Source: Candidatus Acidiferrum sp. (lineage in GTDB: Bacteria; Methylomirabilota; Methylomirabilia; Rokubacteriales; CSP1-6). From it: a stretch of DNA of 64,000 nucleotides. The stretch spans positions 18,477 to 82,476 of the forward strand of contig DATHGT010000258.1 in the NCBI GenBank assembly GCA_035317605.1. The letters run 5' to 3'. This document shows positions 7,151-37,392 of this stretch, piece by piece (positions within the stretch are counted from its first letter, which is position 1; the number at the start of each line of letters is the position of its first letter). The notes under the pieces were generated by a model. It had not been told where the DNA came from and did not search any database. It worked only from the letters and a program-made list of their open reading frames with translations. A program made the position numbers and the translations under genes.

Positions 7151-7690
7151 CTATCCCCGCTCGGCGAGGAGTCGGCGGATCACCGTTTCGGTTTCGTCGT
7201 AGGCGCCCTCGCCGATGTGGCGATGGCGCACGATGCCCTTGCGGTCGACGAGCACTGCGGTCGGCCAGGCCCACACGCCGAACCGCTGCCAGATCGCCAT
7301 GTCGTTGTCCAGGACGACCGGATAGAGGATGCCGAGCCTGCGCACCGCCGCCCGCACGCTGTCGGTCGGCTTCTCCCAGGAGAACTCCGGCGTGTGCACG
7401 CCCACGATGGTGAGCCCGTCACGCTCGTACTTGCCGTGCCAGACCCGCAACTGCGGGATCACGTTCTTGCAGTTGATTCACCCGTAGGTCCAGAAATCCA
7501 CCAGCACCACGCGCCCCCGCAGCGCCGCCGGCGCCAGGGGCTCGCTGTTGATCCACGGCCCGCCCACGATCTCCGGCGCCGGCCGATCGAGCGCCGGCCC
7601 CCTGCCCTGCGCGCCACCGTGAAGCGCGATGCCGACGAGCGCGAGACAAACCAGGGCCGCAATAAACGCCGACCGAAGCACCAAGATCAT
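7151..7690 (-). CDS. TlpA/ResA-like thioredoxin-fold thiol:disulfide oxidoreductase, predicted selenoprotein with an in-frame UGA (Sec) at 7478..7480 in a UxxC motif
   Basis: ORF 7478..8068 ends ...RVVLVDFWTYG at a TGA. The same frame continues INCKNVIPQLRVWHGKYERDGLTIVGVHTPEFSWEK... as ORF 7151..7462. The joined sequence is VLVDFWTYG-U-INCKNV, the canonical W-x-x-C-x-x-C redox site with the first Cys replaced by TGA. A 7-bp hairpin (caactgc...gcaguug) begins 2 nt after the UGA. The N-terminus has a signal/anchor (MILVLRSAFIAALVCLALVGIALHG) and the stop is a TAG 4 nt before the HK start. Confidence 0.7.
7448..7475 (-). promoter_or_regulatory. SECIS-like stem-loop immediately 3' of the UGA in the TlpA-like gene
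   Basis: On the - strand the sequence is UGA-au-CAACUGC-aagaacgugauccc-GCAGUUG, a perfect 7-bp stem with a 14-nt loop. Confidence 0.5.
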
Positions 7691-7752
7691 GTCTGAGACA
7701 GTGCGCCAGGCGTGAGCCGCTGTTGTCAACGCAATGTCAAATGTGTTCGAGC

Positions 7753-7767
7753 GCGGGCTTTGCCCGC
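7753..7767 (-). terminator. Putative terminator hairpin after fumB, followed by a promoter-like TTGACA...TTGACA region ahead of the TlpA-like operon
   Basis: GCGGGCaaaGCCCGC is a perfect 6-bp stem 5 nt after the fumB stop. Downstream on the - strand the sequence acatTTGACAttgcgTTGACAacagc precedes the ATG at 7690. Confidence 0.4.
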
Positions 7768-7772
7768 GAAGT

Positions 7773-8462
7773 TTAGACGATCTCCTCTTCGCAGGAGGCT
7801 TGCTCGCCGAAGCGGCCCATGGCGAACGGGGGGAGGTCGCGGTAGACCTCGCGCAGGCGGACGTTGATCTCGCGGTTGGCCAGCGCGAAGAGGCTGTGGC
7901 CCTCGCGGTCGCCCTCGACCAGGAACGGGCCCAGGCGCTCGACCTCGAGCACCCACAGGGCCTGGGCGATGCCCAGCTCGCGCAGCCAGTGGACGTCCAC
8001 CACGCGCTTGATCGAGCGGCCGTACGTCGCCCCGAGGCCGTAGCCGACGGTGGTGAGATACACGGCACCGTGGGGCACGTACCACTCTCGATACGCGGTC
8101 TCGGTGAGCCCGGCCTTGCCCACGATCACCTTCGCGCCGGTCTTCTCGAACCAGCGGCTCATCGACTTACCGAAGCGGAAGCTCGCGGTCGCGGTCACCG
8201 CCTCGACCGCGTGGGTGCCGTCGGCCCGCACCGTCGCCGCCGGCGAGCAGTGGAAGTTGACGTTGGTCAACGCCCGGACGCTCTCGGGCAATCCCGCCCC
8301 CTCGTCCACGACCTTGCGGTACACGCCTTCCCGCGCGGTGTAGAGGATGCCGCTGAGATAGACGACGTCGCCCAGCTTGAGCCGCGCGAGGTCGGCGTCG
8401 CTCACGGGGGTGGTGAGGGCGACCTCGTCCATCGCCACGTCGTCGAGGCGCGCGATCGTCAC
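7773..8462 (-). CDS. fumB: Class I (Fe-S) fumarate hydratase / L(+)-tartrate dehydratase, beta subunit (C-terminal domain protein)
   Basis: VTIARLDDVAMDEVALTTPVSDADLARLKLGDVVYLSGILYTAREG...KVIVGKAGLTE... matches this family. The GTG start overlaps the alpha-subunit TGA (GTGA). The upstream part of ORF 7773..9200 is a shadow of the alpha gene. Confidence 0.85.
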   Translation of the reverse strand: MTIARLDDVAMDEVALTTPVSDADLARLKLGDVVYLSGILYTAREGVYRKVVDEGAGLPESVRALTNVNFHCSPAATVRADGTHAVEAVTATASFRFGKSMSRWFEKTGAKVIVGKAGLTETAYREWYVPHGAVYLTTVGYGLGATYGRSIKRVVDVHWLRELGIAQALWVLEVERLGPFLVEGDREGHSLFALANREINVRLREVYRDLPPFAMGRFGEQASCEEEIV

Positions 8463-9403
8463 TCGATGCCCTCGCGCCGGTAGTAGTCGGTGAACCATTG
8501 CGGGTCGGTCCGGAACTCCACGCGACCGTCGGGATGGATGCGCGCGGTCGCCCGCCTGGAGGACAAGCAAAACGAGTGCATGCCCACCGGCATTCCACCC
8601 GTGTGGGAGTACGCGACTTCGACATGGGTGGCGACGACCAGCGACGTCCCCGCGAAGCCCATGGCCCCGATCCCGATGTAGTTGCCGAGCGCGGTCAGCT
8701 CTTCTTCCAGCCGAGCCACGACGGGATCGGGATTGCGGCTGCCCACCACGCGCAGGCAGGCCGCCTCCTTGCCCAGGCGCACGCACGTGTCCTTGGCGCC
8801 GCCGATGCCGAGGCCCACGATGGCGGGCTGGCAGGCCAGCCCGCGCTTGCCGAACTGCACGAGCGTGTCGACGAAGAACCGCTTGATACCGGGAATGCCG
8901 TCGGCCGGAAACAGCATGCGGTAATCGCTGCCGAACAGTCCCCCTTTGTGCACGGTCGTGACGTCGATCCAGTCGGCGCCGGGCTCGAACGCGTAGGTGA
9001 TCTCCGGCGCGTGGATGCCCACGTTGTTGTCGTGGTCGGCGCGGGTGAGCGGATGCACGCGGTTCGGACGCAGCGGGATCGCCGCGGTGGCGTCGGCGGT
9101 GGCCCGACGCAGCGCGCGCTCGAGAGCGACGAACCCGCCCTCGACCACGGCCTCGTTGCCGGCGCGCACGTAGTAGCGGGGCAGCCCGGTATCCGCGCAC
9201 ATCGGCCGCCGATCTTCCGTCGCGATGTTCCAGTTCTCGAGCATCTCGGTCAGCACGAAGCGCGGCAGCTTGCTCGTCTCGAGGTCGCGCGCCTGCCGGA
9301 TCCCCTCGCGATAGTCCGGCGGAATGTCGATGGCCGCCCGCGCCATCAACTCCCGCGCGGTGTCCTCGACGAGCTTGATCGCGATCGTCCCGCCCATGGT
9401 CAC
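8459..9403 (-). CDS. fumA: Class I fumarate hydratase / Fe-S hydro-lyase, alpha subunit (N-terminal domain protein)
   Basis: The protein shows MTMGGTIAIKLVEDTARE...RRPMCADTGLPRYYVRAGNEAVVEGG...GLACQPAIVGLGIGGAKDTC. The Cys ligands are typical of the Fe-S hydro-lyase tartrate/fumarate family. Confidence 0.85.
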   Translation of the reverse strand: MTMGGTIAIKLVEDTARELMARAAIDIPPDYREGIRQARDLETSKLPRFVLTEMLENWNIATEDRRPMCADTGLPRYYVRAGNEAVVEGGFVALERALRRATADATAAIPLRPNRVHPLTRADHDNNVGIHAPEITYAFEPGADWIDVTTVHKGGLFGSDYRMLFPADGIPGIKRFFVDTLVQFGKRGLACQPAIVGLGIGGAKDTCVRLGKEAACLRVVGSRNPDPVVARLEEELTALGNYIGIGAMGFAGTSLVVATHVEVAYSHTGGMPVGMHSFCLSSRRATARIHPDGRVEFRTDPQWFTDYYRREGIE

Positions 9404-9416
9404 GCTTAGAGTACCC

Positions 9417-10313
9417 TCATTCGCCGCGCAGGGTCGGATCCAGCAGGTCGCGCAGCCAGTCGCCGGTGCGGCTGACCACCAGCGACGTGAGCATGAGGAT
9501 CAGACCGGGGAACGTGGAGATCCACCAGGCGGAGTCGAGGTAGTCGCGGCCCTCGTAGACCATGCCGCCCCATGACGGCGTGGGCGGCTGGATGCCGAGG
9601 CCGAGGAACGACAGGGTCGCTTCCAGCACGATCGCGCGGGCCAGCTCGAGGGTGGCGATGACGACCAGCGACGAGACAACGTTGGGCAGGATGTGGCGGA
9701 GGACGATGCGGACGACGGAGCCGCCCAGTGCACGGATCGAGTCCACGAACTCGCGGGAGCGCAGCACCAGCACCTGGGCGCGGATGATTCGCGCGTAGTT
9801 CACCCAGCCCGAGAGCCCGACCACCACGATCAGCGTGGGAAAGCTCGGACCGATCACCGCGATGATCCCGATGGCGAGCAGGATGAACGGAAACGCGAGC
9901 TGGGCGTCGGCCAGGGTCATGATCACGGTGTCGGTCCACCCGCTGCGGAAGCCCGCGAGCACGCCGAGCGCGGTGCCCACGAGGCCGCCCACCAGCACGG
10001 CCGCGAAGCCCACGATCAGCGACACGCGGGCGCCGAAGATCACCCGCGAGAGCACGTCGCGGCCGAGGTGATCGGTGCCGAGCGGGTGCGGCTTGCCGTC
10101 GGGCGCCGAGAGCGTGGGCGCGGCCAGCCGTCCGCGCAGCGACTGGCGTACGGGATCGTAGGGCGCCAGCAGCGGCGCGGCCGCCGCCATCACCACCAGC
10201 AGCAGCACGAAGGCGCCGCCCGTGAGGGCCAGGGCTCGCGTGCGCCGCCCACGGCCGCCGTGGGCCGTGGCGTGGGGCTCAGCCGGAGCGGACGCGAGGA
10301 TCGAGGAGGCCAT
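9417..10313 (-). CDS. Peptide ABC transporter permease (DppC/OppC-like)
   Basis: The start is MASSILAS at codon 53 of ORF 9417..10469. The ABC transmembrane type-1 signature region is EATLSFLGLGIQPPTPSWGGM. The start overlaps the dppB-like stop. Confidence 0.8.
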   Translation of the reverse strand: MASSILASAPAEPHATAHGGRGRRTRALALTGGAFVLLLVVMAAAAPLLAPYDPVRQSLRGRLAAPTLSAPDGKPHPLGTDHLGRDVLSRVIFGARVSLIVGFAAVLVGGLVGTALGVLAGFRSGWTDTVIMTLADAQLAFPFILLAIGIIAVIGPSFPTLIVVVGLSGWVNYARIIRAQVLVLRSREFVDSIRALGGSVVRIVLRHILPNVVSSLVVIATLELARAIVLEATLSFLGLGIQPPTPSWGGMVYEGRDYLDSAWWISTFPGLILMLTSLVVSRTGDWLRDLLDPTLRGE

Positions 10314-11160
10314 AGATGAGGTCGACACAGAAGTTGATGACGATGAACAGCACGGCGGAGACGAACACCACGCACTGCACCACCGGATAGTCCCGGTTGT
10401 AGATGGACTGGATGGCCAGCCGGCCGATGCCCGGCCACGCGAACACGGTCTCGGTGACCACGGCGCCACCGAGCAGGGTGCCGAACTGGAGCCCCGTGAT
10501 GGTCACGATCGGCACCGCCGCGTTCTTGAGCGCGTGCTTGACGATCACCAGCGTCTCGGCCACGCCCTTGGCGCGCGCGGTGCGGACGAAGTCCGCGCGC
10601 AGCACCTCCAGCATGGCCGAGCGCGTGAGCCGCGCGATCGAGGCCATGGCGAACGCGCCGAGCGTGAGGGCGGGCAGCACGAGGTGGCGCCAGTCGCCGC
10701 GGCCGGACGTCGGGAGGAGACCGAGCTTCAGCGAGACCACGAGGATGAGCAGGATCCCGATGAAGAACGTGGGAGCCGCCTGGCCGATCAGCGCGACCCC
10801 CATCGCGAGCTGATCGACCAGCGAGTTCCGTCGCACCGCCGAGACGACCCCGATGGGCAGCGCGACCAGCGCGGCCAGCCCGAACGCCGTCAGCCCCAGC
10901 TCCAGCGTCGCCGGCAGGTATCCCCTCACCACGCGCACGGCGGGCTCGCGGAAGTGGATCGAGCGGCCGAAATCGCCGCGCAGGGCGTTGCCGAGGAACA
11001 CCACGTACTGCACGGGCAGCGGCCGGTCGAGCCCCAGCTCGGCGCGGACGCGGAAGATCTCGCTGCGCGGGGCGTCGGGCGGCAACAGCAGCGGCACCGG
11101 ATCGCCCGAGAGCCGCATGACCACGAACACCACGCTGGACACGAGCCACAGCGCGACCAC
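10279..11160 (-). CDS. Peptide ABC transporter permease (DppB/OppB-like); start uncertain
   Basis: The protein shows ...LRALLPFLASRLLRAVVALWLVSSVVFVVMRLSGDP...LGLDRPLPVQYVVFLGNALRGDFGRSI...EAA-loop region. The first canonical start in frame is a GTG at 11160. Alignment to DppB suggests the true N-terminus lies ~12-15 codons further upstream (to ~11200) on a non-canonical start, overlapping the S8 protease stop. Confidence 0.7.
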   Translation of the reverse strand: MVALWLVSSVVFVVMRLSGDPVPLLLPPDAPRSEIFRVRAELGLDRPLPVQYVVFLGNALRGDFGRSIHFREPAVRVVRGYLPATLELGLTAFGLAALVALPIGVVSAVRRNSLVDQLAMGVALIGQAAPTFFIGILLILVVSLKLGLLPTSGRGDWRHLVLPALTLGAFAMASIARLTRSAMLEVLRADFVRTARAKGVAETLVIVKHALKNAAVPIVTITGLQFGTLLGGAVVTETVFAWPGIGRLAIQSIYNRDYPVVQCVVFVSAVLFIVINFCVDLIYGLLDPRVRSG

Positions 11161-16826: not shown

Positions 16827-17750
16827 TCAGTGCGGGGGTTGGGGCAGCGGCAGATCGAAGGGGGCGCCCCACGTGAACGTGTGGGTCTGCCCGCTGGACG
16901 ACCGAAGCACGAACCACTCGGCCGTCGAGCCTCGCTCCACCGCGACGTCCGCTTTGCCGTCGCCGTCGAAGTCGCCGGGCACCGGGGTGTCGCCGGGAGC
17001 GCCGAAGGTGAGCGCCTGCAATCCGGTGGCGCTGCCGAAGATCAGCCACTCGCCCGTGGCCGTCCGATAGACGGCCAGATCGGTCTTGCCGTCACCGTCG
17101 AAGTCGGCGGGCACCGGAACGTCGCCGAGCCCGCTCGCGGCCGGAGCGCCGAACACTCGGGTTTGAAAGCCGGTGGCGCTGCCGAAGATGAACCACTCCC
17201 CGGTGGCCTTGCGATAGACGGCGAGATCGGCCTTGCCGTCGCCGTCGTAGTCCCCGGGCACCGGCGTGTCGCCGAGGCCAAGCGAGGCGGGAGAACCGAA
17301 GAGCAGCGTCTGAAAGCCGGTCGCCGTGCCGAACACGAACCATTCGCCGGTGGCCTTGCGATAGACGGCGAGATCGGCCTTGCCGTCGCCATCGTAGTCC
17401 GCGGGCACCGCCGTGTCGCCGAGGCCCAGCGAGGCGGGGGAGCCGAAGAGCAGCGTCCGGAAGCCGGTCGCGCTGCCGAACACGAACCATTCGCCGGTCG
17501 CTTGCCGGTAGACCGCGAGATCCGTCCGGCGATCGCCATCGAAATCGGCGGGCACCGGCGAGTCGCCGAGACCGCTGGCGGCCGGCGAGCCGAAGAGCAG
17601 CGTCTGAAAACCCGTCGCGCTGCCGAACACGAACCACTCTCCCGTGCCCGGTCGATAGACGGCCGCGTCCGTCTTGCCGTCGCCGTCGAAGTCACCGAGG
17701 ACCCGCCCGACGGCCAGGGTCGCGGTGCGGACCGTGGAGCCCCCCCCGTT
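16827..17750 (-). repeat. ~0.9-kb FG-GAP-module DNA repeat, copy 1 (3' end of protease 1)
   Basis: This copy is ~85-93% nucleotide-identical to 20203..21110 and 23887..24790. The same alternative-frame ORFs recur: 17092..17637, 20441..21028 and 24167..24712 all read MVRVRQRDRLSD.... Confidence 0.7.
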
Positions 17751-19640
17751 CGTGGTGTTGGTGAACGCCAGCGTGGAGGGACCATAGGTGCCGAGGGCGA
17801 GGCCGTTGGCGGTGGCGTTCACGGTGAAGGTCACCGTCGTGGCCGACGTGGTCGCCGTGCCCGACATCGGCGAGGCGGTCAACCAGCTCGGCACCCCGGA
17901 GATGGCAAAGTTCACCGCGCCCGTCGTCGTGCTGAGCTGGAACTGGAACGACGACGGCGAGAAGGGTCCCCCCTTCTTCCCGGAGGAGAGGACGTTGCCG
18001 GCCGGCGTGACCTGCAAGGTGGGCACGAGCACGTTGACGGACAGGATCGCGGTCCGGGTGGTGTTGCCCAGACCGTTGGTGGTGTTGGTGAACGTGATGG
18101 TGGTCGGGCCGTAGACGCCGGGGGCGAGCGCGTTCGCGCCGGCGTTCACCGTGAAGGTGACCGTGGTCGCCGACGTCGTCGCGGTGCCCGAGGTGGCCGA
18201 GGCGGTCAGCCAGCTCGGCACCCCGGAAATCGAAAAGTTCACCGACCCGCTCGTCGCGCTCAGCTGATACGCGAACGAGGACGGCGAGAACGGCCCGCCC
18301 TGGAGGCCCGAAGCCGCGAGGTTGGTGGCCGGCGTCACCGAAAGGGCCGACGGTCCGCTCACCGTGATCGTGCTGCGTATCTCGGCGGCCGCGACGCCGC
18401 GCTCGACGATCACCTTCGCGGTGAAGGTGCCGGCGGAGGCGTAGACGTGGGGGGCGTTCTGCGAGGTGGCCACGACCGCGTTGAACTTCGCGCCGATGAC
18501 CGGGTTGGTCGGATCGCCGCAGGCCGCCGTCACCGCGCTCACGCTGGTCCCGGAGTTCGAGCAGTTCCACCAGAACGTGTAGTTGATCGTTCCCACCGCC
18601 GTGCCCCCGACCTGGGCGGTCAGCGTGGTGCTCAGCGGGCTGGGGCCGCTGGCAGGATTGGGCGTCAACGAGGCCGACAGCGACAGCACCGTCCATCCGA
18701 TGTCCTGAAACAGCGCGAGCTCCAGGCTCGGATCGAGCGGCACCGTGTAGATCGGCTCCATGATCTGATCGGGCGAGAGCGCGGTGTCCCAGTGCGACAC
18801 CGAGGAGCCGGGCTGCTGGGGACTCGGGGCGAACATCCGGACGTGGTCGCCCACCTTGCCCGCCGAGAGGATGCCACTGGCGGCCCGAACCTGAGCGCCG
18901 ACCCAGTGCAGGTTGCCGCTATTCGTGCTCGCGGCGACGCGCTGGGCGTTGGTCATGCTCGGATAGTCGGCCGGGCTGGCCCCGTGGCTTTCCAGGTTCA
19001 GCATGAACGTGTCGTTCAGGCCCAGGGCCTTGGCGCCGGTGGTCAGGTCGACGAGGGTGAGAAAGCCCAGCCCGTGGCCCAGCTCGTGGAGGAGGACCGT
19101 GACGAAGTCGATGTTGGCGCCCGCGTTGCCGTCGAGCCCGTAGTACCAGCTTCTCGGGAACGCGCAGGTCGTCCCGATCGCGCTGTTGAATTGCGCGTTG
19201 ATGTCGGCGGCGCCGTCGAGGTCGGTTCCATGGAGCGCGTTGGCGAGCGGGCTCGGATACCAGGTGGACCCCAGGGGGGCGCCGCTGAAATCGCGAAAGG
19301 CGGTGTTGGGGCCGGCGGACCCGAGGATCGCGGAGCTGGCGTTGCACGCCAACGGATCGAACGTGGCGTTGACCCGGATGGTCACCGCGCTGAACAGGAG
19401 CGCGCCCCAGACGTCCGCGGCGTGCTGGAAGGCGATCAGTCGCTGCGCGCCGAGCGTCACTCCGAGGTTACCACCTATGGGAGCCACGGGGGTCGCATCG
19501 TTGAACCCCTCGCCGGGGCCGTCGTTGTTGATCACCGTGATGACCGCGGCGTGCGCGAGGGGAGACGCGACGGTCGCCAGCCCGACGAGCGACGCGAGCG
19601 CGACGACGACGCTGAACCCCCTCCGGCGGCGCCTCACCAT
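16827..19640 (-). CDS. Secreted zinc metalloprotease (HEXXH: VLLHELGHGLGFL) + 2 Ig-like domains + C-terminal FG-GAP repeat beta-propeller (protease cassette 1)
   Basis: The signal peptide is MVRRRRRGFSVVVALASLVGLATVASPLAHA (ATG 19640). HELGHGLGF is the zinc-binding HEXXH motif. There are two ~100-aa tandem Ig-like repeats (...SGVPSWLTAS...TVTFTVNA...). Six or seven ~50-aa FG-GAP/VCBS repeats follow (GDFDGDGKTDLAVYR...GEWFVFGSATGF...LFG). Confidence 0.8.
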   Translation of the reverse strand: MVRRRRRGFSVVVALASLVGLATVASPLAHAAVITVINNDGPGEGFNDATPVAPIGGNLGVTLGAQRLIAFQHAADVWGALLFSAVTIRVNATFDPLACNASSAILGSAGPNTAFRDFSGAPLGSTWYPSPLANALHGTDLDGAADINAQFNSAIGTTCAFPRSWYYGLDGNAGANIDFVTVLLHELGHGLGFLTLVDLTTGAKALGLNDTFMLNLESHGASPADYPSMTNAQRVAASTNSGNLHWVGAQVRAASGILSAGKVGDHVRMFAPSPQQPGSSVSHWDTALSPDQIMEPIYTVPLDPSLELALFQDIGWTVLSLSASLTPNPASGPSPLSTTLTAQVGGTAVGTINYTFWWNCSNSGTSVSAVTAACGDPTNPVIGAKFNAVVATSQNAPHVYASAGTFTAKVIVERGVAAAEIRSTITVSGPSALSVTPATNLAASGLQGGPFSPSSFAYQLSATSGSVNFSISGVPSWLTASATSGTATTSATTVTFTVNAGANALAPGVYGPTTITFTNTTNGLGNTTRTAILSVNVLVPTLQVTPAGNVLSSGKKGGPFSPSSFQFQLSTTTGAVNFAISGVPSWLTASPMSGTATTSATTVTFTVNATANGLALGTYGPSTLAFTNTTNGGGSTVRTATLAVGRVLGDFDGDGKTDAAVYRPGTGEWFVFGSATGFQTLLFGSPAASGLGDSPVPADFDGDRRTDLAVYRQATGEWFVFGSATGFRTLLFGSPASLGLGDTAVPADYDGDGKADLAVYRKATGEWFVFGTATGFQTLLFGSPASLGLGDTPVPGDYDGDGKADLAVYRKATGEWFIFGSATGFQTRVFGAPAASGLGDVPVPADFDGDGKTDLAVYRTATGEWLIFGSATGLQALTFGAPGDTPVPGDFDGDGKADVAVERGSTAEWFVLRSSSGQTHTFTWGAPFDLPLPQPPH

Positions 19641-19668
19641 CGCCGCCTCGCCCCGTGGCGCCGAATCG

Positions 19669-20073
19669 TCATGGCTTGTCGGCAACGGGACGCGTCTCGT
19701 CGAGATGCTGCATCTTGACCTTTCCGCCGGCATCGATGGTGACGATCAGCGGGTTCTGGAAGCGCCCCTGGAGATCGAGCTTGACCCCGCCACCGGCGAC
19801 GGAGCTCGGCGTCTCGACCAACCCTTGATGCGAGGTGCTCAGCGAATTGGCGAGCTGCGGGCTCAGCTGAAGCGGCACGGTGCCCGGCGCCGGCTCCTCG
19901 AGAATCGCTCCGGTCTGGGGATCGACGTAGATCACCATGCCCGGTGCGCCTTGCGCGGCCGCGACGGGCGGGCTGTCTCCGGCGAACACGGGCGGGGCCA
20001 CCACGGCGAAGCTGCCGAGGACCACGAGCAGGCCCAAGAACAATCCCTGAGGACGCGCGCGCTTCTCCTTCAT
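19669..20073 (-). CDS. Small secreted protein (134 aa) encoded immediately upstream of protease 1; paralog at 26002..26385
   Basis: The signal peptide is MKEKRARPQGLFLGLLVVLGSFAVVAPPVFA. The SD is GAAGGAGG 9 nt upstream. The mature region (MVIYVDPQTGAILEEPAPGTVPLQLSPQL...LIVTIDAGGKVKMQHL) is ~85% identical to the 26002..26385 product. The stop lies 28 nt before the protease start. Confidence 0.6.
   Translation of the reverse strand: MKEKRARPQGLFLGLLVVLGSFAVVAPPVFAGDSPPVAAAQGAPGMVIYVDPQTGAILEEPAPGTVPLQLSPQLANSLSTSHQGLVETPSSVAGGGVKLDLQGRFQNPLIVTIDAGGKVKMQHLDETRPVADKP

Positions 20074-34114: not shown

Positions 34115-34118
<4 letters not shown>
32910..34118 (+). CDS. CoA-transferase family III (CaiB/BaiF) protein
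   Basis: The protein shows LDGLTVLDFTRVLAGPYCTRLLADLGARVIKIE...VENFVPGVMAKLGLDY. GTG start. Confidence 0.85.
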
Positions 34119-34531
<413 letters not shown>

Positions 34532-34544
34532 GCCTGGACTCCTC

Positions 34545-34781
34545 TCAGCCTTCCGCGAGTGCCGCGTCGATCGCCTTGGGGTTGAAGCCGGTCAGCTTCT
34601 TGTCGCCGATGAGCAGCACGGGCAGCGACAGGAGGCCCAGCGCCATCAGCTCCTGGCGGGCCTCCGGGTCACGTCCCACGTTCTTCTCGGTGAACACCAC
34701 GCCCTTTTGCGATAGATACTCTACCGCTCGGTGACAGGGCCCTCAGCCGATGTTGGTGTAGACGGTGATGCTCGGCGCCAT
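34545..34781 (-). CDS. Glutaredoxin/NrdH-like redox protein, predicted selenoprotein with an in-frame UGA (Sec) at 34743..34745 in a U-G-P-C active site
   Basis: ORF 34743..35084 ends ...MAPSITVYTNIG at a TGA. The same frame continues GPCHRAVEYLSQKGVVFTEKNVGRDPEARQELMALGLLSLPVLLIGDKKLTGFNPKAIDAALAEG* to the TGA at 34545. This is a Grx/NrdH layout (VYT-x-x-x-C-P-x-C-HRA) with TGA at the first Cys. GGAGG sits 7 nt before ATG 34781. An 8-bp hairpin lies 15 nt after the UGA. Confidence 0.65.
34710..34728 (-). promoter_or_regulatory. SECIS-like hairpin 3' of the UGA in the Grx-like gene
   Basis: On the - strand GCGGUAGA-gua-UCUAUCGC forms an 8-bp stem (one G-U pair) with a 3-nt loop, beginning 15 nt downstream of the UGA. 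Confidence 0.45.
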
Positions 34782-34887: not shown

Positions 34888-35748
34888 ATGTCCGATACCG
34901 TGCACGTGGCCAGCGGCAAGGTGCGAGAACTGTACGCGCTCGACGACGACCGGCTGCTGCTCGTGGCCTCCGACCGGATCTCGACCTTCGACGTCGTGCA
35001 TCCGACCGCCATCCCCGACAAGGGCCGCGTGCTCGCCGGCCTCGCCGCGTTCTGGTTCACGCGGACGCGCACGATCTGCCTCAATCACCTGTTGACCGTG
35101 CGACCCGACGGCCGCTCGACCGAATGCCGGCGGCTGGCCATGCTGCCCATCGAGTGCGTGGTGCGCGGCTACCTCGCCGGTTCGGGGTGGCGCGACTACC
35201 GGACGCGCGGCGAGGTCTGCGGTCACCGCCTGCCCGCCGGGCTCCGCGAGTCCGACCGCCTGCCCGAGCCGATCTTCACGCCCGCCACCAAGGCCCAGAC
35301 CGGCCACGACGAGAACATCACCCGCGAGGAGGCCGCCTCCGTGGTCGGCGCCGAGCGCCTCGCCGAGGTCGAGCGCCTCTCGCTCGAGCTGTATCGCTTC
35401 GCGTCGGAGTACGCCCGCGAGCGCGGGATCGTCATCGCGGACACCAAGTTCGAGTTCGGCCTCGATCGCGCGGGACGCGTGGTGCTGGGTGACGAGGCGC
35501 TGACACCGGATTCGTCCCGCTTCTGGCCCGCCGACCAGTACGCGCCCGGCGGTCCGCAGCCGTCGTTCGACAAGCAGTTCGTCCGCGACTACTGCGAGCG
35601 CACGGGATGGGACAAGACCCCGCCCGGACCGGAGCTTCCGCCGGACGTGGTCTCCGGCACGCGGGCGCGCTACGTCGAAGCGTTCGAGCGCCTGACGTCG
35701 ATCGAGTTCGACGGCTACCTCGCCGACCCGACCGTGGTCCTGGGTTAA
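34888..35748 (+). CDS. purC: Phosphoribosylaminoimidazole-succinocarboxamide synthase (SAICAR synthetase)
   Basis: The protein shows MSDTVHVASGKVRELY...LLVASDRISTFDVV...GIVIADTKFEFG. GGAGG sits 9 nt before ATG 34888 (M20 of the listed ORF). Confidence 0.9.
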   Translation: MSDTVHVASGKVRELYALDDDRLLLVASDRISTFDVVHPTAIPDKGRVLAGLAAFWFTRTRTICLNHLLTVRPDGRSTECRRLAMLPIECVVRGYLAGSGWRDYRTRGEVCGHRLPAGLRESDRLPEPIFTPATKAQTGHDENITREEAASVVGAERLAEVERLSLELYRFASEYARERGIVIADTKFEFGLDRAGRVVLGDEALTPDSSRFWPADQYAPGGPQPSFDKQFVRDYCERTGWDKTPPGPELPPDVVSGTRARYVEAFERLTSIEFDGYLADPTVVLG

Positions 35749-36533
35749 GCGCCGGGCACGGGAGTCCGATCGACGGGCGCGATGGCGCCCATGTCGGACT
35801 CGAGCTGGAGCGTGTCGGCGATCTTGCTGTAGCTCGAGAACATCTGCGCCACGCCGAGGATCTCCATCACCCCGCGCTCGCCGACACCGAGCCGTCGCAT
35901 CTGACCCAGGTGCAGCGCCGTCCCGAAGCGCGAGCGTGACGTGAGCGAGACCGCGAAGGCCAGCGCTTCCTTCAGCCGCCGGGTCAGCGCGTGGTCGTCG
36001 AACGCGTGACGGAGCGCGCCCCAGAAATCGGCGAGATACCCGGGATCGTGGGCGAGCGTCAGGAACGGCGCGGGCATGTCGCCGTAGAACGCGCGGATCT
36101 CGTCGAAGACGGCGCGAGCTTCATCGCCCGGTTCGGTCGGCGGCGGCAGGATCTCAGCGGGTAATCCGTCGGCGACCACGTTGAGCGCGTTGGTGATGCC
36201 GACGACGGACGCGGCCTCGTACCAGAGCGCGTCCTCCTTCATCCCCTGCAGCTTCCCGGCCGCAGTGTGCGCTTCCACTCAGTAGCGACAGGCATTCACC
36301 CCGCTGACGACGGCCGCGACCATCTCCTTCTCCGCTCGTGTGAACTCGCCGGGCCCCATCGCCCGCTTCATCGCCCGCCCGTGAGGACCGCCGAACCCGG
36401 GATCCCACGCCATCACCCGACTCATCGCCGGCGGCTCCACGAAGTCATACCCGAACCACGCCTTCGACAGCTCGAACAGCCTGCGCGCCGCCTCCGGATA
36501 CTCCGACGCGTCTCGAATCCTCACCGTGGTCAT
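35745..36533 (-). CDS. AhpD/carboxymuconolactone-decarboxylase-family peroxidase-related protein, predicted selenoprotein with an in-frame UGA (Sec) at 36279..36281 (C-x-Y-U motif)
   Basis: ORF 36279..36533 ends ...EKEMVAAVVSGVNACRY at a TGA, and ORF 35745..36278 continues in the same frame from the next codon (GTG) as VEAHTAAGKLQ.... The joined sequence VSGVNACRY-U-VEAH matches the CMD/AhpD-core motif N-x-C-x-Y-C-x-x-x-H with the second Cys replaced by TGA. A very strong SD (GGAGGAGG) sits before ATG 36533. A 7-bp hairpin lies 13 nt after the UGA. Confidence 0.65.
36247..36266 (-). promoter_or_regulatory. SECIS-like hairpin 3' of the UGA in the AhpD-like gene
   Basis: On the - strand CUGCGGC-cgggaa-GCUGCAG forms a 7-bp stem with a GG-containing loop, beginning 13 nt downstream of the UGA. 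Confidence 0.45.
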
Positions 36534-36666
36534 CGCGCCCTCCTCCCCGCGGTTCGTGACAAAGCCCGGGCGATCCTACCTCCCAGGATGAGCTCGATCA
36601 AACAGTCGAGATCCGCAATGGCGGTCGGTCGCCACGACCAGTTCGACCCCACGCGCGACAGGCATC

Positions 36667-36694
36667 ATGACAGCATTTCCAATAATGCTATGAT
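36667..36694 (+). promoter_or_regulatory. vapBC promoter (-35 ATGACA / 16 nt / -10 TATGAT) with an overlapping inverted repeat; predicts a leaderless vapB mRNA
   Basis: ATGACAgcatttccaataatgcTATGATgccgccATG. The -10 ends 6 nt before the vapB ATG (36701). gcatt...aatgc is an inverted repeat within the spacer and is the likely VapB operator. Confidence 0.45.
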
Positions 36695-36700
36695 GCCGCC

Positions 36701-36961
36701 ATGCGGACCACGGTGACGCTCGATCCTGACGTCGCGGCGAAGCTCAAGGCGGTCGCCCGCGAGCGCGGCATCTCGTTCAAGCAGGCCCTGAACGGCGCCG
36801 TACGGGCTGGCCTCGGGGGGCAGCGCAAAGCCGCCCGCGCCTTCACGCAGTACGCGCAGCCGATGGGTCTCCGTCCGGGCTTCAATCTCGACAAAGCCCT
36901 CCAACTCGCGGGGGCCCTCGAGGACGAGGAGATCGTGCGCCGGCTCGAGCGACGCAAGTGA
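36701..36961 (+). CDS. vapB: Type II antitoxin VapB-like (ribbon-helix-helix / CopG-type)
   Basis: MRTTVTLDPDVAAKLKAVARERGISFKQALN..., 86 aa. The stop overlaps the vapC GTG start (GTGA). Confidence 0.75.
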   Translation: MRTTVTLDPDVAAKLKAVARERGISFKQALNGAVRAGLGGQRKAARAFTQYAQPMGLRPGFNLDKALQLAGALEDEEIVRRLERRK

Positions 36962-37392
36962 AGCTCGTCGATGCGAACCTCCTCCTCTACGCGACCGACG
37001 CGCGTTCGCCGCGACACGCGGCGGCCCGATCCTGGCTCGAGCAGCAGTTGTCGGGCGTCGAGACGATCGCGCTCGCATGGGTGGTGTTGCTCGCGTTCTT
37101 GCGTCTGAGCACCCATTCACACGTCTTCGCGCGACCGCTGGCGGTGGAGCGCGCGTTCGACGTGGTCGACCGCTGGCTCGCGCGACCATGCGTCGTCGTC
37201 GTGCATCCGGGTGATCGGCACGCGGCGGTCATGCGCCAGCTTCTCGGACGGCTCGGGACGGCGGGCAACCTGGTGAACGACGCCCACCTGGCCGCCCTCG
37301 CCATCGAGCACGGCGCGGAGCTGAACTCGTGCGATTCCGACTTCTCCCGCTTCGCCGGACTCCGCTGGATCAACCCCCTCGACGCTGCGTAA
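36958..37392 (+). CDS. vapC: PIN-domain toxin VapC
   Basis: MKLVDANLLLYATDARSPRHAAARSWL... with the acidic PIN residues (D5, E..., D..., NxxD ...LVNDAHLAA...CDSDFSRF). Confidence 0.85.
   Translation: MKLVDANLLLYATDARSPRHAAARSWLEQQLSGVETIALAWVVLLAFLRLSTHSHVFARPLAVERAFDVVDRWLARPCVVVVHPGDRHAAVMRQLLGRLGTAGNLVNDAHLAALAIEHGAELNSCDSDFSRFAGLRWINPLDAA

What the first reader, a model, noticed from the sequence alone, without database searches (positions are those of the whole stretch)
35745..36533. AhpD/CMD-family protein with C-x-Y-U active site: third candidate selenoprotein in the window
ORF 36279..36533 ends ...VSGVNACRY at a TGA and is followed in frame by ORF 35745..36278 (VEAHTAAG...). The junction reconstructs the AhpD-core motif N-x-C-x-Y-C-x-x-x-H with the second Cys as TGA. 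The gene has one of the strongest SDs in the window (GGAGGAGG), and a 7-bp GG-loop hairpin sits 13 nt after the UGA. The joined protein (~262 aa) has a second, Cys-less CMD-like half.
Basis: partly seen in the sequence, partly recalled or inferred. Interest (0 to 1): 0.7.

Follow-up and report, generated by a model that had tools for sequence, protein, structure and literature searches.

The report
AhpD-like selenoprotein gene split by annotation
The two adjacent reading frames are one gene for a 262-residue AhpD/CMD-family redox protein whose in-frame TGA almost certainly encodes selenocysteine; this is a known kind of bacterial selenoprotein that public annotation splits into two genes.

Summary

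**The gene.** Window 35745..36533 (-) is one gene. Its in-frame TGA (36281..36279) completes the AhpD proton-relay signature E70-x11-C82-x-Y84-U85-x3-H89.

**Family match.** The joined protein hits Pfam CMD (5.5e-16) across the TGA. It aligns to solved AhpD-core proteins that have Cys at that position.

**Conservation.** In 82 related loci plus the window, mostly Rokubacteria/Methylomirabilota, the codon is TGA in 83 of 83. The gene's real stop varies: TAG 40, TGA 38, TAA 4.

**SECIS-like hairpin.** A 7-bp hairpin (CUGCRGC/CGGGAA/GCUGCAG) lies 13 nt after the UGA and meets all four published bacterial SECIS constraints. Its synonymous sites are frozen and use otherwise rare codons (ACT, GCA). 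There is no covariation.

**Sec machinery.** No Sec machinery is in the window. In 16 related loci tRNA-Sec lies about 1.9 kb downstream of the orthologue, followed by SelA and SelB in 10-11 of them.

**Second half.** The C-terminal half is a degenerate, Cys-less duplicate of the first (hhalign probability 90.6%).

**Neighbours.** In 21 of the 82 loci the gene directly follows a Grx-like selenoprotein (G-U-G-P-C) and a ferredoxin-thioredoxin-reductase-like gene.

**Novelty.** CxxU AhpD-like selenoproteins have been known since 2005, so this is a new member of a known kind. No subfamily model reaches its cutoff.

The parts
35745..36533 (-). Complete gene for the 262-residue AhpD/CMD-family selenoprotein (ATG 36533..36531, Sec-TGA 36281..36279, stop TAA 35747..35745)
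   Evidence: sequence, translation; Pfam CMD 5.5e-16, two stretches; same joined architecture in 82 other loci
36539..36546 (-). Shine-Dalgarno-like GGAGGAGG, 5 nt upstream of the ATG
   Evidence: Read directly
36159..36533 (-). N-terminal, catalytically competent AhpD-core/CMD domain (residues 1-125) carrying E70, C82, Y84, U85 and H89
   Evidence: aligns to PDB 2ouw over residues 1-122 and to 2oyo, 6k40, 3c1l, with C-x-Y-C opposite C-R-Y-U; TIGR00778 ahpD_dom 48.7 bits against a cutoff of 27.8
36324..36326 (-). Glu70 codon (GAG), 12 residues before Cys82; corresponds to Glu118 of M. tuberculosis AhpD and Glu36 of PA0269
   Evidence: invariant in alignment A3; relay residues from PMC3141380
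36288..36290 (-). Cys82 codon (TGT), first residue of the C-x-Y-U motif (the likely resolving Cys)
   Evidence: TGC/TGT in 83/83 loci
36279..36281 (-). In-frame TGA = predicted Sec85, aligned with the second Cys of the AhpD CxxC motif
   Evidence: TGA in 83/83 loci; Cys at this position in solved homologues
36267..36269 (-). His89 codon (CAC), the x3-H of the AhpD signature
   Evidence: His in all 82 sequences scored
36246..36265 (-). Predicted bacterial SECIS hairpin: 5' arm CUGCGGC (36265..36259), loop CGGGAA (36258..36253), 3' arm GCUGCAG (36252..36246); begins 13 nt after the UGA, and the loop begins 20 nt after it
   Evidence: minimum-free-energy structure, -11.7 kcal/mol for the hairpin alone; RNAalifold consensus, pairs kept in 49/49 sequences apart from one C-A; synonymous sites frozen; published model constraints
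36244..36266 (-). 23-nt block ACUGCRGCCGGGAAGCUGCAGGG, nearly invariant at the nucleotide level across 83 loci, third codon positions included
35748..36116 (-). C-terminal degenerate CMD-like domain (residues about 140-262). It keeps the Glu and His equivalents but has Ser for Cys82 and Gly for Sec85
   Evidence: hhalign N-domain against C-domain: probability 90.6%, E 1.3e-6, 101 columns; second stretch 183-242 aligns to the C-terminal halves of 2oyo, 6k40 and 3c1l
34545..34781 (-). Associated neighbour: Grx/NrdH-like selenoprotein candidate (NIG-U-GPC; TGA 34745..34743)
   Evidence: TGA conserved in all 19 related copies that the pattern search found; linked to the AhpD-like gene in 23/82 loci
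34115..34531 (-). Associated neighbour: ferredoxin-thioredoxin reductase catalytic-subunit-like gene (CPC...CAC...CHC)
   Evidence: (PF02943); directly upstream of the AhpD-like gene in 21/82 loci

Best explanation
Window 35745..36533(-) is a single gene for a 262-residue selenoprotein of the AhpD/carboxymuconolactone-decarboxylase (CMD) fold. Translation starts at ATG 36533, behind a strong Shine-Dalgarno sequence. At UGA85 the ribosome does not terminate. A 7-bp hairpin with a CGGGAA loop, 13 nt downstream, most likely acts as a bacterial SECIS that recruits SelB carrying Sec-tRNA(Sec), so selenocysteine is inserted. Sec85 takes the place of the second Cys of the AhpD CxxC motif, within the conserved relay Glu70-x11-Cys82-x-Tyr84-Sec85-x3-His89. 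The inferred chemistry is a thiol/selenol oxidoreductase cycle. The Sec85 selenolate attacks an oxidised substrate (a hydroperoxide, or a peroxiredoxin or other protein sulfenate or disulfide). Cys82 then resolves the adduct to a selenenylsulfide, which an external reductant reopens. The C-terminal half is an inactivated duplicate of the first half (Ser and Gly at the two redox positions). It probably plays the part of the second subunit of the dimer that single-domain AhpD-core proteins form. The most likely reductant is the neighbouring Grx-like selenoprotein (G-U-G-P-C) with the ferredoxin-thioredoxin-reductase-like protein. Shown here: the gene structure, family membership, TGA conservation, RNA-level constraint on the hairpin, Sec machinery beside the orthologues, and the gene linkage. 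Inferred: actual Sec insertion, the catalytic cycle, the substrate, the pseudo-dimer role and the electron donor.
For: Junction and frame. Pfam CMD 5.5e-16 with the best stretch (57-103) spanning the TGA. Solved AhpD-core and peroxidase-related proteins (2ouw, 2oyo, 6k40, 3c1l) align through the TGA with C-x-Y-C opposite C-R-Y-U and the His conserved. The relay residues match those described for M. tuberculosis AhpD and PA0269 (E36, C48, Y50, C51, H55): PMC3141380. TGA in 83/83 loci with a conserved in-frame 84-85-aa N-terminal part. The true terminal stop varies (TAG 40, TGA 38, TAA 4), and there is no conserved start codon after the TGA (first ATG/GTG/TTG at codon +1 in 45 loci, +13 in 37, +24 in 1). 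TGA serves as an ordinary stop for neighbouring genes (Grx-like, RHH, OmpA-like), so the code is not reassigned. Hairpin: minimum-free-energy fold and RNAalifold consensus. It meets the published bSECIS constraints: 3-9 nt loop, 4-16 bp stem, a G in the first two loop positions, 16-37 nt from UGA to loop, MFE at or below -7.5 kcal/mol (PMC13188914). Codons +5 to +10 have 0-0.33 bits of synonymous entropy and use ACT (80/81) and GCA (77/82). Most other conserved 4- or 6-fold degenerate codons in the gene have 0.8-1.7 bits, and the lowest of them 0.38. tRNA-Sec lies about 1.9 kb downstream in 16 related loci (Rfam RF01852 69.3 bits), followed by SelA (PF03841, 8e-150) and SelB in 10-11 loci. Internal duplication: hhalign probability 90.6%. 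GrxU-FtrB linkage in 23/82 loci, contiguous and on the same strand in 21. CxxU AhpD-like and CMD-like selenoproteins are an established class: PMC1088965, PMC2398784, PMC13188914.
Against: No tRNA-Sec, selA or selB lies in the 64-kb window, and the rest of this genome could not be searched. The hairpin shows no compensatory covariation: it is simply invariant (0 of 6 pairs with changes on both sides). Its stability is not exceptional for this G+C content (z -1.67). The encoded peptide HTAAGKLQG is itself invariant, so part of the nucleotide conservation comes from the protein. No close Cys-containing orthologue was found, so the classical Sec/Cys pair exists only at the level of the wider CMD family. 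Sec incorporation, enzyme activity and partners are untested. In this window the Grx/FTR genes are separated from the AhpD-like gene by an oppositely oriented purC, so they are not in one operon here.
Confidence: 0.88

Rival explanations
1. There are two separate genes, as in the public annotation: an 84-aa hypothetical protein that ends at a genuine TGA stop, and an independently translated CMD-family protein of 165-177 aa, perhaps translationally coupled and assembling non-covalently.
For: GenBank annotates exactly this for the window's own contig (HMH52606.1, 84 aa, hypothetical; HMH52605.1, 165 aa, CMD family). Gene callers do the same in more than 1000 metagenomic clusters. GTG directly follows the TGA in the window and in 44 other loci.
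Against: The stop would be TGA in 83/83 loci while the gene's real stop varies freely. There is no conserved start codon downstream: codon +1 is ACG or ACC in six loci, and the first start in L023 is at codon +24. The CMD domain and the catalytic motif C-x-Y-[C]-x3-H would be cut in the middle of a helix, with Cys on one chain and His on the other. The frame and the zero spacing never vary. The synonymous constraint on a hairpin placed where a SECIS belongs would be unexplained.
Confidence: 0.04
2. The UGA is recoded, but not as selenocysteine. It could be read through by a near-cognate or suppressor tRNA as Trp, Cys or Gly, with the hairpin acting as a general read-through stimulator.
For: One database relative (P0156) shows W at the position, and one noisy sequence (P0185) shows G. 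No Sec machinery lies in the window itself.
Against: The position is the redox-active Cys of the family, the typical site of Cys/Sec exchange. tRNA-Sec, SelA and SelB sit next to the orthologue in 10-16 related genomes. The hairpin fits the SelB-type bSECIS model. The W and G residues are most simply explained by alternative-code gene calls or error-prone reads. TGA terminates neighbouring genes.
Confidence: 0.05
3. It is a pseudogene or an assembly error: a CMD gene inactivated by a nonsense mutation at the Cys codon (TGC or TGT to TGA).
For: A single base change turns TGC or TGT into TGA.
Against: The same TGA is present in 83 independent assemblies from different samples and species. Both halves are under strong purifying selection: 75-94% amino-acid identity in the N-terminal part and GC3 of 0.85-0.90 on both sides.
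Confidence: 0.01
4. It is a selenoprotein but not a peroxide or disulfide reductase. It could be a gamma-carboxymuconolactone-type decarboxylase or a sensor that merely keeps the CxxC-like motif.
For: The Pfam family is named after a decarboxylase, and most AhpD-core proteins have no assigned substrate. No peroxiredoxin gene was seen next to it.
Against: Sec is found almost only at redox-active sites. All five AhpD relay positions are kept. The linked genes are redox proteins (a Grx-like selenoprotein and an FTR-like protein), not genes for aromatic catabolism.
Confidence: 0.08

Closest known systems
AhpD-like and CMD-like CxxU selenoproteins of bacteria (Sargasso Sea 2005 'AhpD-like protein' and 'CMD domain-containing protein'; GOS 2008 'AhpD-like 1/2'; 2026 review entry 'CMD-like protein, PF02627, CxxU')
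   Same: It has a CMD/AhpD fold, with Sec replacing the second Cys of the CxxC motif (CxxU). A bacterial SECIS-type hairpin lies just downstream of the UGA. It occurs in uncultured environmental bacteria and is often found next to other thiol-oxidoreductase selenoproteins.
   Different: It is a tandem protein: an active domain plus a Cys-less duplicate, 262 aa. Every orthologue seen carries Sec and no close Cys form was found. It falls below the cutoffs of the subfamily models listed for those classes: TIGR01926 51.7 against 81.8, NF041238 31 against 175, and NF041047 not hit. Whether it is already listed in BSepDB, or in the 63-selenoprotein Methylomirabilota genome cited in the review, could not be checked.
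Single-domain AhpD-core proteins with solved structures (R. rubrum 2ouw; peroxidase-related 2oyo, 6k40, 3c1l; P. aeruginosa PA0269)
   Same: The N-terminal domain aligns end to end with 2ouw (residues 1-122). The relay E-x11-C-x-Y-C-x3-H is identical to that of PA0269.
   Different: Those proteins use Cys, not Sec. They have one domain, or a different two-part layout, and form homo-oligomers (dimers or hexamers), whereas here the second copy is fused and inactivated.
Mycobacterium tuberculosis AhpD (reductant adaptor for the peroxiredoxin AhpC)
   Same: It has the same catalytic relay: Glu118, Cys130, His132, Cys133 and His137 correspond to E70, C82, Y84, U85 and H89.
   Different: It is not an orthologue: TIGR00777 scores 18.3 bits against a cutoff of 191.95. 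The motif lies in the N-terminal rather than the C-terminal part. There is no adjacent ahpC. It has Tyr instead of His132.
NF041238 AhpD_rel_CFYUT alkylhydroperoxidase-related (seleno)protein ('hypothetical protein 1' of the Sargasso Sea)
   Same: It is an AhpD-related selenoprotein with a C-x-Y-U motif.
   Different: Only a local match of 31 residues was found (31 bits against a cutoff of 175), and the profile is 357 positions long. It is a different family.

Membership tests
Pfam CMD (PF02627) / AhpD-core domain | Score above the curated gathering threshold | tested here: met
   PF02627 scores 58.8 bits against a cutoff of 23, E 5.5e-16, in two stretches. TIGR00778 ahpD_dom scores 48.7 bits against 27.8.
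AhpD-type redox active site | Relay signature Glu-x11-Cys-x-(His/Tyr)-Cys-x3-His | tested here: met
   E70, C82, Y84, U85(TGA) and H89. All are invariant in relatives. The signature comes from PMC3141380.
Bacterial selenoprotein | In-frame TGA conserved among orthologues, with coding conservation on both sides | tested here: met
   TGA in 83/83 loci; N- and C-terminal parts conserved in one frame; the real stop codon varies.
Bacterial selenoprotein | Cys-containing homologues aligned with the TGA position | tested here: met
   2ouw, 2oyo, 6k40 and 3c1l have Cys opposite U85. This holds only at the level of the wider family; no close Cys orthologue was found.
Bacterial selenoprotein | bSECIS model: 3-9 nt apical loop, 4-16 bp upper stem, G in loop position 1 or 2, 16-37 nt from UGA to loop, MFE at or below -7.5 kcal/mol | tested here: met
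   The loop CGGGAA is 6 nt with G at position 2 followed by G. The stem is 7 bp. There are 20 nt between the UGA and the loop. The hairpin alone folds at -11.7 kcal/mol. Constraints are from PMC13188914.
Bacterial selenoprotein | Evolutionary support for the SECIS structure (covariation) | tested here: inconclusive
   No pair changes on both sides, because the stem is nearly invariant. Support comes instead from frozen synonymous sites and the use of rare codons.
Bacterial selenoprotein | Sec-decoding machinery (selC, selA, selB, selD) in the same genome | tested here: inconclusive
   None lies in the window or in the 9.8 kb beyond its end. tRNA-Sec, SelA and SelB are present beside the orthologue in 10-16 related genomes. 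selD was not looked for.
Bacterial selenoprotein | Selenium actually incorporated at the UGA | not testable with these tools
   Requires 75Se labelling or mass spectrometry.
TIGR01926 peroxid_rel (listed as the 'AhpD-like protein' selenoprotein family in PMC13188914) | Score above the curated cutoff | tested here: not met
   51.7 bits against 81.8; only residues 62-93 match.
NF041238 AhpD_rel_CFYUT (seleno)protein | Score above the curated cutoff | tested here: not met
   31 bits against 175.
NF041047 distant AhpD homologue selenoprotein | Any match to the model | tested here: not met
   Not among the NCBIfam hits at E up to 0.01.
TIGR00777 AhpD proper (the M. tuberculosis type) | Score above the curated cutoff; adjacent ahpC | tested here: not met
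   18.3 bits against 191.95. No peroxiredoxin appears among the recurrent neighbours.

The most novel reading that the evidence does not exclude
This may be a distinct, always-Sec-containing subfamily of tandem (pseudo-dimeric) AhpD proteins, confined to Rokubacteria/Methylomirabilota and some Acidobacteriota. It would be the terminal member of a ferredoxin-driven selenoprotein relay: FTR-like [4Fe-4S] disulfide reductase, then a Grx-like G-U-G-P-C selenoprotein, then the AhpD-like C-x-Y-U selenoprotein. In some lineages the gene sits beside selC-selA-selB. No current family model captures it, and public genomes systematically annotate it as two genes.
Probability: 0.25. Interest if true: 0.55.

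Novelty: new member of a known kind. Interest (0 to 1): 0.38.

Why it matters
**Annotation.** The gene is split into an 84-aa 'hypothetical protein' and a truncated 'CMD family protein' in GenBank and in more than a thousand metagenomic protein clusters. Recognising it as one selenoprotein corrects the annotation of a widespread soil-bacterial gene. It also adds to the selenoprotein count of Methylomirabilota, a phylum already reported to have a very large selenoproteome (PMC13188914).

**Biology.** The repeated linkage to a Grx-like selenoprotein and a ferredoxin-thioredoxin-reductase-like gene gives a concrete, testable hypothesis for the electron donor of an AhpD-like selenoprotein. The partners of that class are unknown.

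**Methods.** The nearly invariant 23-nt SECIS block could serve as a handle for finding SelB-binding elements in these uncultured lineages.

Tried and rejected
- **Rfam.** A search of the whole window at gathering thresholds and of the 301 nt around the TGA at E up to 10 found no SECIS-type family. Rfam appears to have no model matching this hairpin, so the result is uninformative rather than negative.
- **Thermodynamic test of the hairpin.** The z-score is only -1.67 for a 47-nt stretch, and there is no signal in a 70-nt stretch. Stability alone does not set it apart from G+C-rich background, so I relied on synonymous-site conservation instead.
- **Covariation.** None is available, because the stem is invariant.
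- **Search for a Cys orthologue.** I ran phmmer with the 84-aa N-terminal part against 1.84 billion representatives and a profile of the N-domain against 5.8 billion proteins. Both returned only fragments ending at the TGA, plus a few noisy or spliced gene models.
- **Structure prediction of the joined protein.** The tool refuses a sequence containing the stop and accepts only exact window sequences. No three-dimensional model was made, and folding either fragment alone was judged uninformative.
- **selA in the window.** tblastn with a related SelA found nothing.
- **Walking along the source contig.** A look-up reached 9.8 kb beyond the window end and found proteasome, Pup-ligase and ABC-transporter genes but no sel genes.
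- **Other in-frame-TGA candidates.** A mechanical scan gave 60 candidates. Most are antisense or off-frame artefacts of the high G+C content. For example, the pair at 18265 and 25010 lies antisense to a 968-aa repeat protein.
- **The ARAGORN 'tRNA-Asn'.** I considered the 90-nt call at 8996..9085 as a possible miscalled tRNA-Sec. I rejected it because its anticodon is GTT and Rfam gives it no tRNA support.
Full report
**1. The observation**

On the minus strand an ATG at 36533 is preceded by GGAGGAGG, 5 nt upstream. It opens a frame that reads ...EKEMVAAVVSGVNACRY, meets TGA at 36281..36279, and continues in the same frame as VEAHTAAGKLQGMKEDALWYEAA... to TAA at 35745.

The joined product is 262 residues. 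Thirteen nucleotides after the UGA lies the hairpin CUGCGGC/CGGGAA/GCUGCAG (36265..36246). It is the minimum-free-energy structure of the local RNA.

**2. What the protein is**

With Cys substituted for the stop, the joined protein matches Pfam CMD (PF02627) at 5.5e-16. There are two stretches, and the best one (residues 57-103) spans the TGA. The NCBIfam AhpD core-domain model also passes its cutoff.

Solved structures align straight through the TGA. The 138-residue AhpD-core protein 2ouw aligns to residues 1-122, and the peroxidase-related proteins 2oyo, 6k40 and 3c1l align as well. Their C-x-Y-C lies opposite C82-R-Y-[TGA], and the following His is conserved.

The spacing is E70-x11-C82-x-Y84-U85-x3-H89. 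This is the five-residue proton relay described for M. tuberculosis AhpD (Glu118, Cys130, His132, Cys133, His137). It also matches P. aeruginosa PA0269 (Glu36, Cys48, Tyr50, Cys51, His55), which likewise has Tyr at the third position (PMC3141380).

The C-terminal half is a diverged copy of the N-terminal half. A profile-profile comparison gives probability 90.6%, E 1.3e-6, over 101 columns. The copy keeps the Glu and His equivalents but has Ser at the Cys82 position and Gly at the Sec85 position.

**3. Is the TGA a sense codon?**

I collected 80 loci from species-representative genomes. They are mostly Candidatus Rokubacteria/Methylomirabilota, with a few labelled Acidobacteriota or other taxa. 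I added two metagenomic loci that are syntenic with the window. The evidence has five parts.

- **Codon conservation.** In all 83 sequences, the window included, the codon is TGA. It is preceded by a conserved 84-85-residue in-frame N-terminal part that starts M-[PAT]-T-V-R-[LI]-R.
- **Contrast with the real stop.** The gene's true terminal stop varies across the 82 sequences where it could be read: TAG 40, TGA 38, TAA 4.
- **No conserved restart.** The first ATG, GTG or TTG after the TGA is at codon +1 in 45 loci, +13 in 37 and +24 in one. Six loci have ACG or ACC directly after the TGA.
- **No code reassignment.** TGA serves as an ordinary stop for neighbouring genes, so the genetic code is standard.
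- **Truncation in databases.** The 120 best hits listed in each search are truncated exactly at this codon. The 120 best matches to the joined protein are 160-238-residue C-terminal fragments, many beginning at the codon right after the TGA. A search of 1.84 billion representatives with the N-terminal 84 residues gave 64 hits, most of which end at query position 84. The 120 best matches to an N-domain profile are almost all 84-85-residue 'hypothetical proteins'.

No close Cys orthologue appeared in these searches. The exceptions are noisy reads or intron-style gene models that splice out the TGA region.

**4. The SECIS candidate**

The 23 nt from +15 to +37 after the TGA (ACUGCRGCCGGGAAGCUGCAGGG) are nearly invariant in the 83 loci.

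The codons for T-A-A-G-K-L (+5 to +10) have synonymous entropies of 0.10, 0.33, 0, 0, 0 and 0 bits. They use ACT (80/81) and GCA (77/82), codons almost absent elsewhere in this G+C-rich gene. Most other amino-acid-invariant 4- or 6-fold degenerate codons have 0.8-1.7 bits, and the lowest of them has 0.38. This is selection at the RNA level, and it coincides exactly with the stem.

The hairpin meets all four constraints of the published bacterial SECIS model (PMC13188914):

| Constraint | Model | This hairpin |
|---|---|---|
| Apical loop | 3-9 nt | 6 nt |
| Upper stem | 4-16 bp | 7 bp |
| G in loop position 1 or 2 | required | G at position 2, followed by G |
| UGA to loop | 16-37 nt | 20 nt |
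| Minimum free energy | -7.5 kcal/mol or lower | -11.7 kcal/mol |

There are three weaknesses.

- RNAalifold recovers the stem but finds no compensatory change, only A-U to G-U at one pair.
- The stability z-score is modest.
- The encoded peptide is itself invariant, so the protein accounts for part of the conservation.

Rfam offers no matching family.

**5. Sec machinery**

The window holds no tRNA-Sec and no selA. The 9.8 kb beyond its end on the source contig holds none either.

Related genomes do have it next to the orthologue. In 16 related loci ARAGORN finds a 98-nt tRNA-Sec (anticodon TCA) about 1.9 kb downstream of the orthologous gene. Rfam confirms one of them (RF01852, 69.3 bits against a threshold of 47). 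It is followed by SelA (PF03841, 8e-150) and SelB (GTP_EFTU, SelB beta-barrel and winged-helix domains) in 10-11 loci.

The window also carries two other in-frame-TGA candidates whose hairpins fit the same model.

- A Grx/NrdH-like protein, NIG-U-GPC, with its TGA at 34745..34743.
- A TlpA/Trx-like protein, FWTYG-U-INC, with its TGA at 7480..7478.

A recent review reports a Methylomirabilota genome with 63 predicted selenoprotein genes (PMC13188914). The lineage clearly decodes Sec. For this particular genome that remains an inference.

**6. Genomic context and likely partners**

In the window the order on the minus strand is: the AhpD-like gene, then purC on the opposite strand, then the Grx-like selenoprotein gene, then a ferredoxin-thioredoxin-reductase catalytic-subunit-like gene. 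An RHH-PIN toxin-antitoxin pair lies upstream.

Across the 82 related loci the Grx-like and FTR-like pair is within 2.4 kb of the AhpD-like gene in 23. In 21 of those it is immediately upstream on the same strand. It is either contiguous (for example L026) or separated by a RidA-like gene (for example L003). The Grx-like gene carries its own conserved TGA in all 19 copies that the pattern search recovered.

Other neighbours differ between clades: a multihaem cytochrome, an amidase, a ThiS/MoaD-like protein. No peroxiredoxin recurs.

The linkage suggests an electron path from reduced ferredoxin through the FTR-like protein and the Grx-like selenoprotein to the AhpD-like selenoprotein. This is inference from gene order only.

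**7. Mechanism proposed**

SelB carrying Sec-tRNA(Sec) binds the hairpin and decodes UGA85. Sec85 occupies the second position of the CxxC motif.

By analogy with AhpD chemistry (my own knowledge of the family, supported by the relay residues quoted), the selenolate attacks an oxidised substrate. Cys82 resolves the adduct to a selenenylsulfide, and a thiol or selenol donor regenerates the enzyme.

AhpD-core proteins assemble as dimers within hexamers. The fused, inactivated second domain would then give a covalent pseudo-dimer with a single active site. That role is an inference.

**8. Comparison with what is known**

AhpD-like and CMD-domain selenoproteins with a CxxU motif have been described repeatedly.

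- They were first described from the Sargasso Sea metagenome in 2005 (PMC1088965).
- They were abundant in the Global Ocean Sampling data ('AhpD-like 1', 299 sequences; 'AhpD-like 2', pfam02627, 70 sequences; PMC2398784).
- They are listed in a 2026 review.

The present protein belongs to that class at the level of fold, motif and recoding. It does not reach the cutoffs of the specific models TIGR01926, NF041238 or TIGR00777, and it does not hit NF041047. It is best described as an unmodelled tandem-domain subfamily.

Public annotation of the window's own contig splits it into two proteins, HMH52606.1 and HMH52605.1. That contig is GenBank MAG 'Candidatus Acidoferrum sp.', ENA k141_62674, 95.7 kb.

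**9. Verdict**

The protein is an ordinary example of a known selenoprotein class. Three features add modest interest: it appears to be Sec-only, it has a pseudo-dimeric architecture, and it is linked to a Grx-like selenoprotein and an FTR-like gene. I rate confidence that it is a Sec-containing AhpD-family protein at about 0.88, and interest at about 0.38.

Noticed in passing
window 34545..34781 (-), TGA at 34745..34743: A Grx/NrdH-like ORF with an in-frame TGA gives the UxxC motif NIG-U-GPC. An 8-bp hairpin with a GUA loop starts 15 nt after the UGA. The best NCBIfam hits are YruB/NrdH-type glutaredoxins and weak matches to 'Uxx-star' selenoprotein families. The TGA is conserved in all 19 related copies that the pattern search found.
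   Followed up: partly
window 34115..34531 (-): A ferredoxin-thioredoxin reductase catalytic-subunit-like gene (CPC...CAC...CHC), all-Cys here. It has a weak match (42.8 bits against a cutoff of 160) to the NCBIfam 'FtrB family double-selenoprotein' model. It travels with the Grx-like selenoprotein gene in 23/82 related loci.
   Followed up: partly
window about 7151..7800 (-), TGA at 7480..7478: A TlpA/Trx-like membrane-anchored ORF with an in-frame TGA in VVLVDFWTYG-U-INC (UxxC). A hairpin CCCGC/AGUU/GCGGG starts 20 nt after the UGA. It is probably another selenoprotein.
   Followed up: partly
L004, L005, L006, L019, L021, L022, L029, L030, L032, L052, L057, L061, L070, L076, L080 (e.g. L005 7931..8028, 9412..10821, 10840..end): In these related loci tRNA-Sec lies downstream of the AhpD-like gene, about 1.9 kb in most, followed by selA and selB in 10-11 of them. 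A multihaem cytochrome c gene lies between on the opposite strand, and in most of these loci a ThiS/MoaD-like gene lies upstream.
   Followed up: partly
window 8996..9085 (+): ARAGORN calls a 90-nt 'tRNA-Asn' (anticodon GTT). Rfam finds no tRNA there at gathering thresholds or at E up to 1. It is probably a false positive.
   Followed up: partly
window 36701..37392 (+): An RHH (CopG-like) and PIN toxin-antitoxin pair lies directly upstream of, and divergent from, the AhpD-like gene. Among the related loci it is present only in L001, so it looks like a recent insertion. A sigma-70-like promoter match (10/12) lies at 36667..36694.
   Followed up: no
whole window (source record): The window is part of ENA contig k141_62674 (95,708 bp), deposited as MAG 'Candidatus Acidoferrum sp.' (Acidobacteriota). 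Nearly all close relatives of its genes are labelled Rokubacteria/Methylomirabilota. The taxonomic label or the binning may be wrong.
   Followed up: no
proteins P0157 and P0156: P0157 (225 aa) has the Cys-less CMD half first and then a half that ends ...NACEY at a stop, a permuted relative. P0156 reads ...NACEYWTVDHTAAGK, with W at the Sec position. That is either an alternative-code gene call or a real TGG variant.
   Followed up: no
proteins P0051, P0080, P0094: These database entries join the N-terminal part directly to the second domain and skip the TGA region. They look like eukaryote-style spliced gene models applied to bacterial DNA.
   Followed up: no
window 16827..19733 (-) and a paralogue near 25 kb: A 968-aa secreted protein with many tandem 'DFDGDGKTDLAVYR...GEWF' (FG-GAP/VCBS-like) repeats has a paralogue about 6.7 kb away. 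Their antisense frames produce spurious in-frame-TGA candidates.
   Followed up: no
L083 3408..9722: Just beyond the window end on the same contig lies a Pup-proteasome cluster: two Pup-ligase-family genes, proteasome alpha and beta subunits, and an AAA ATPase.
   Followed up: no
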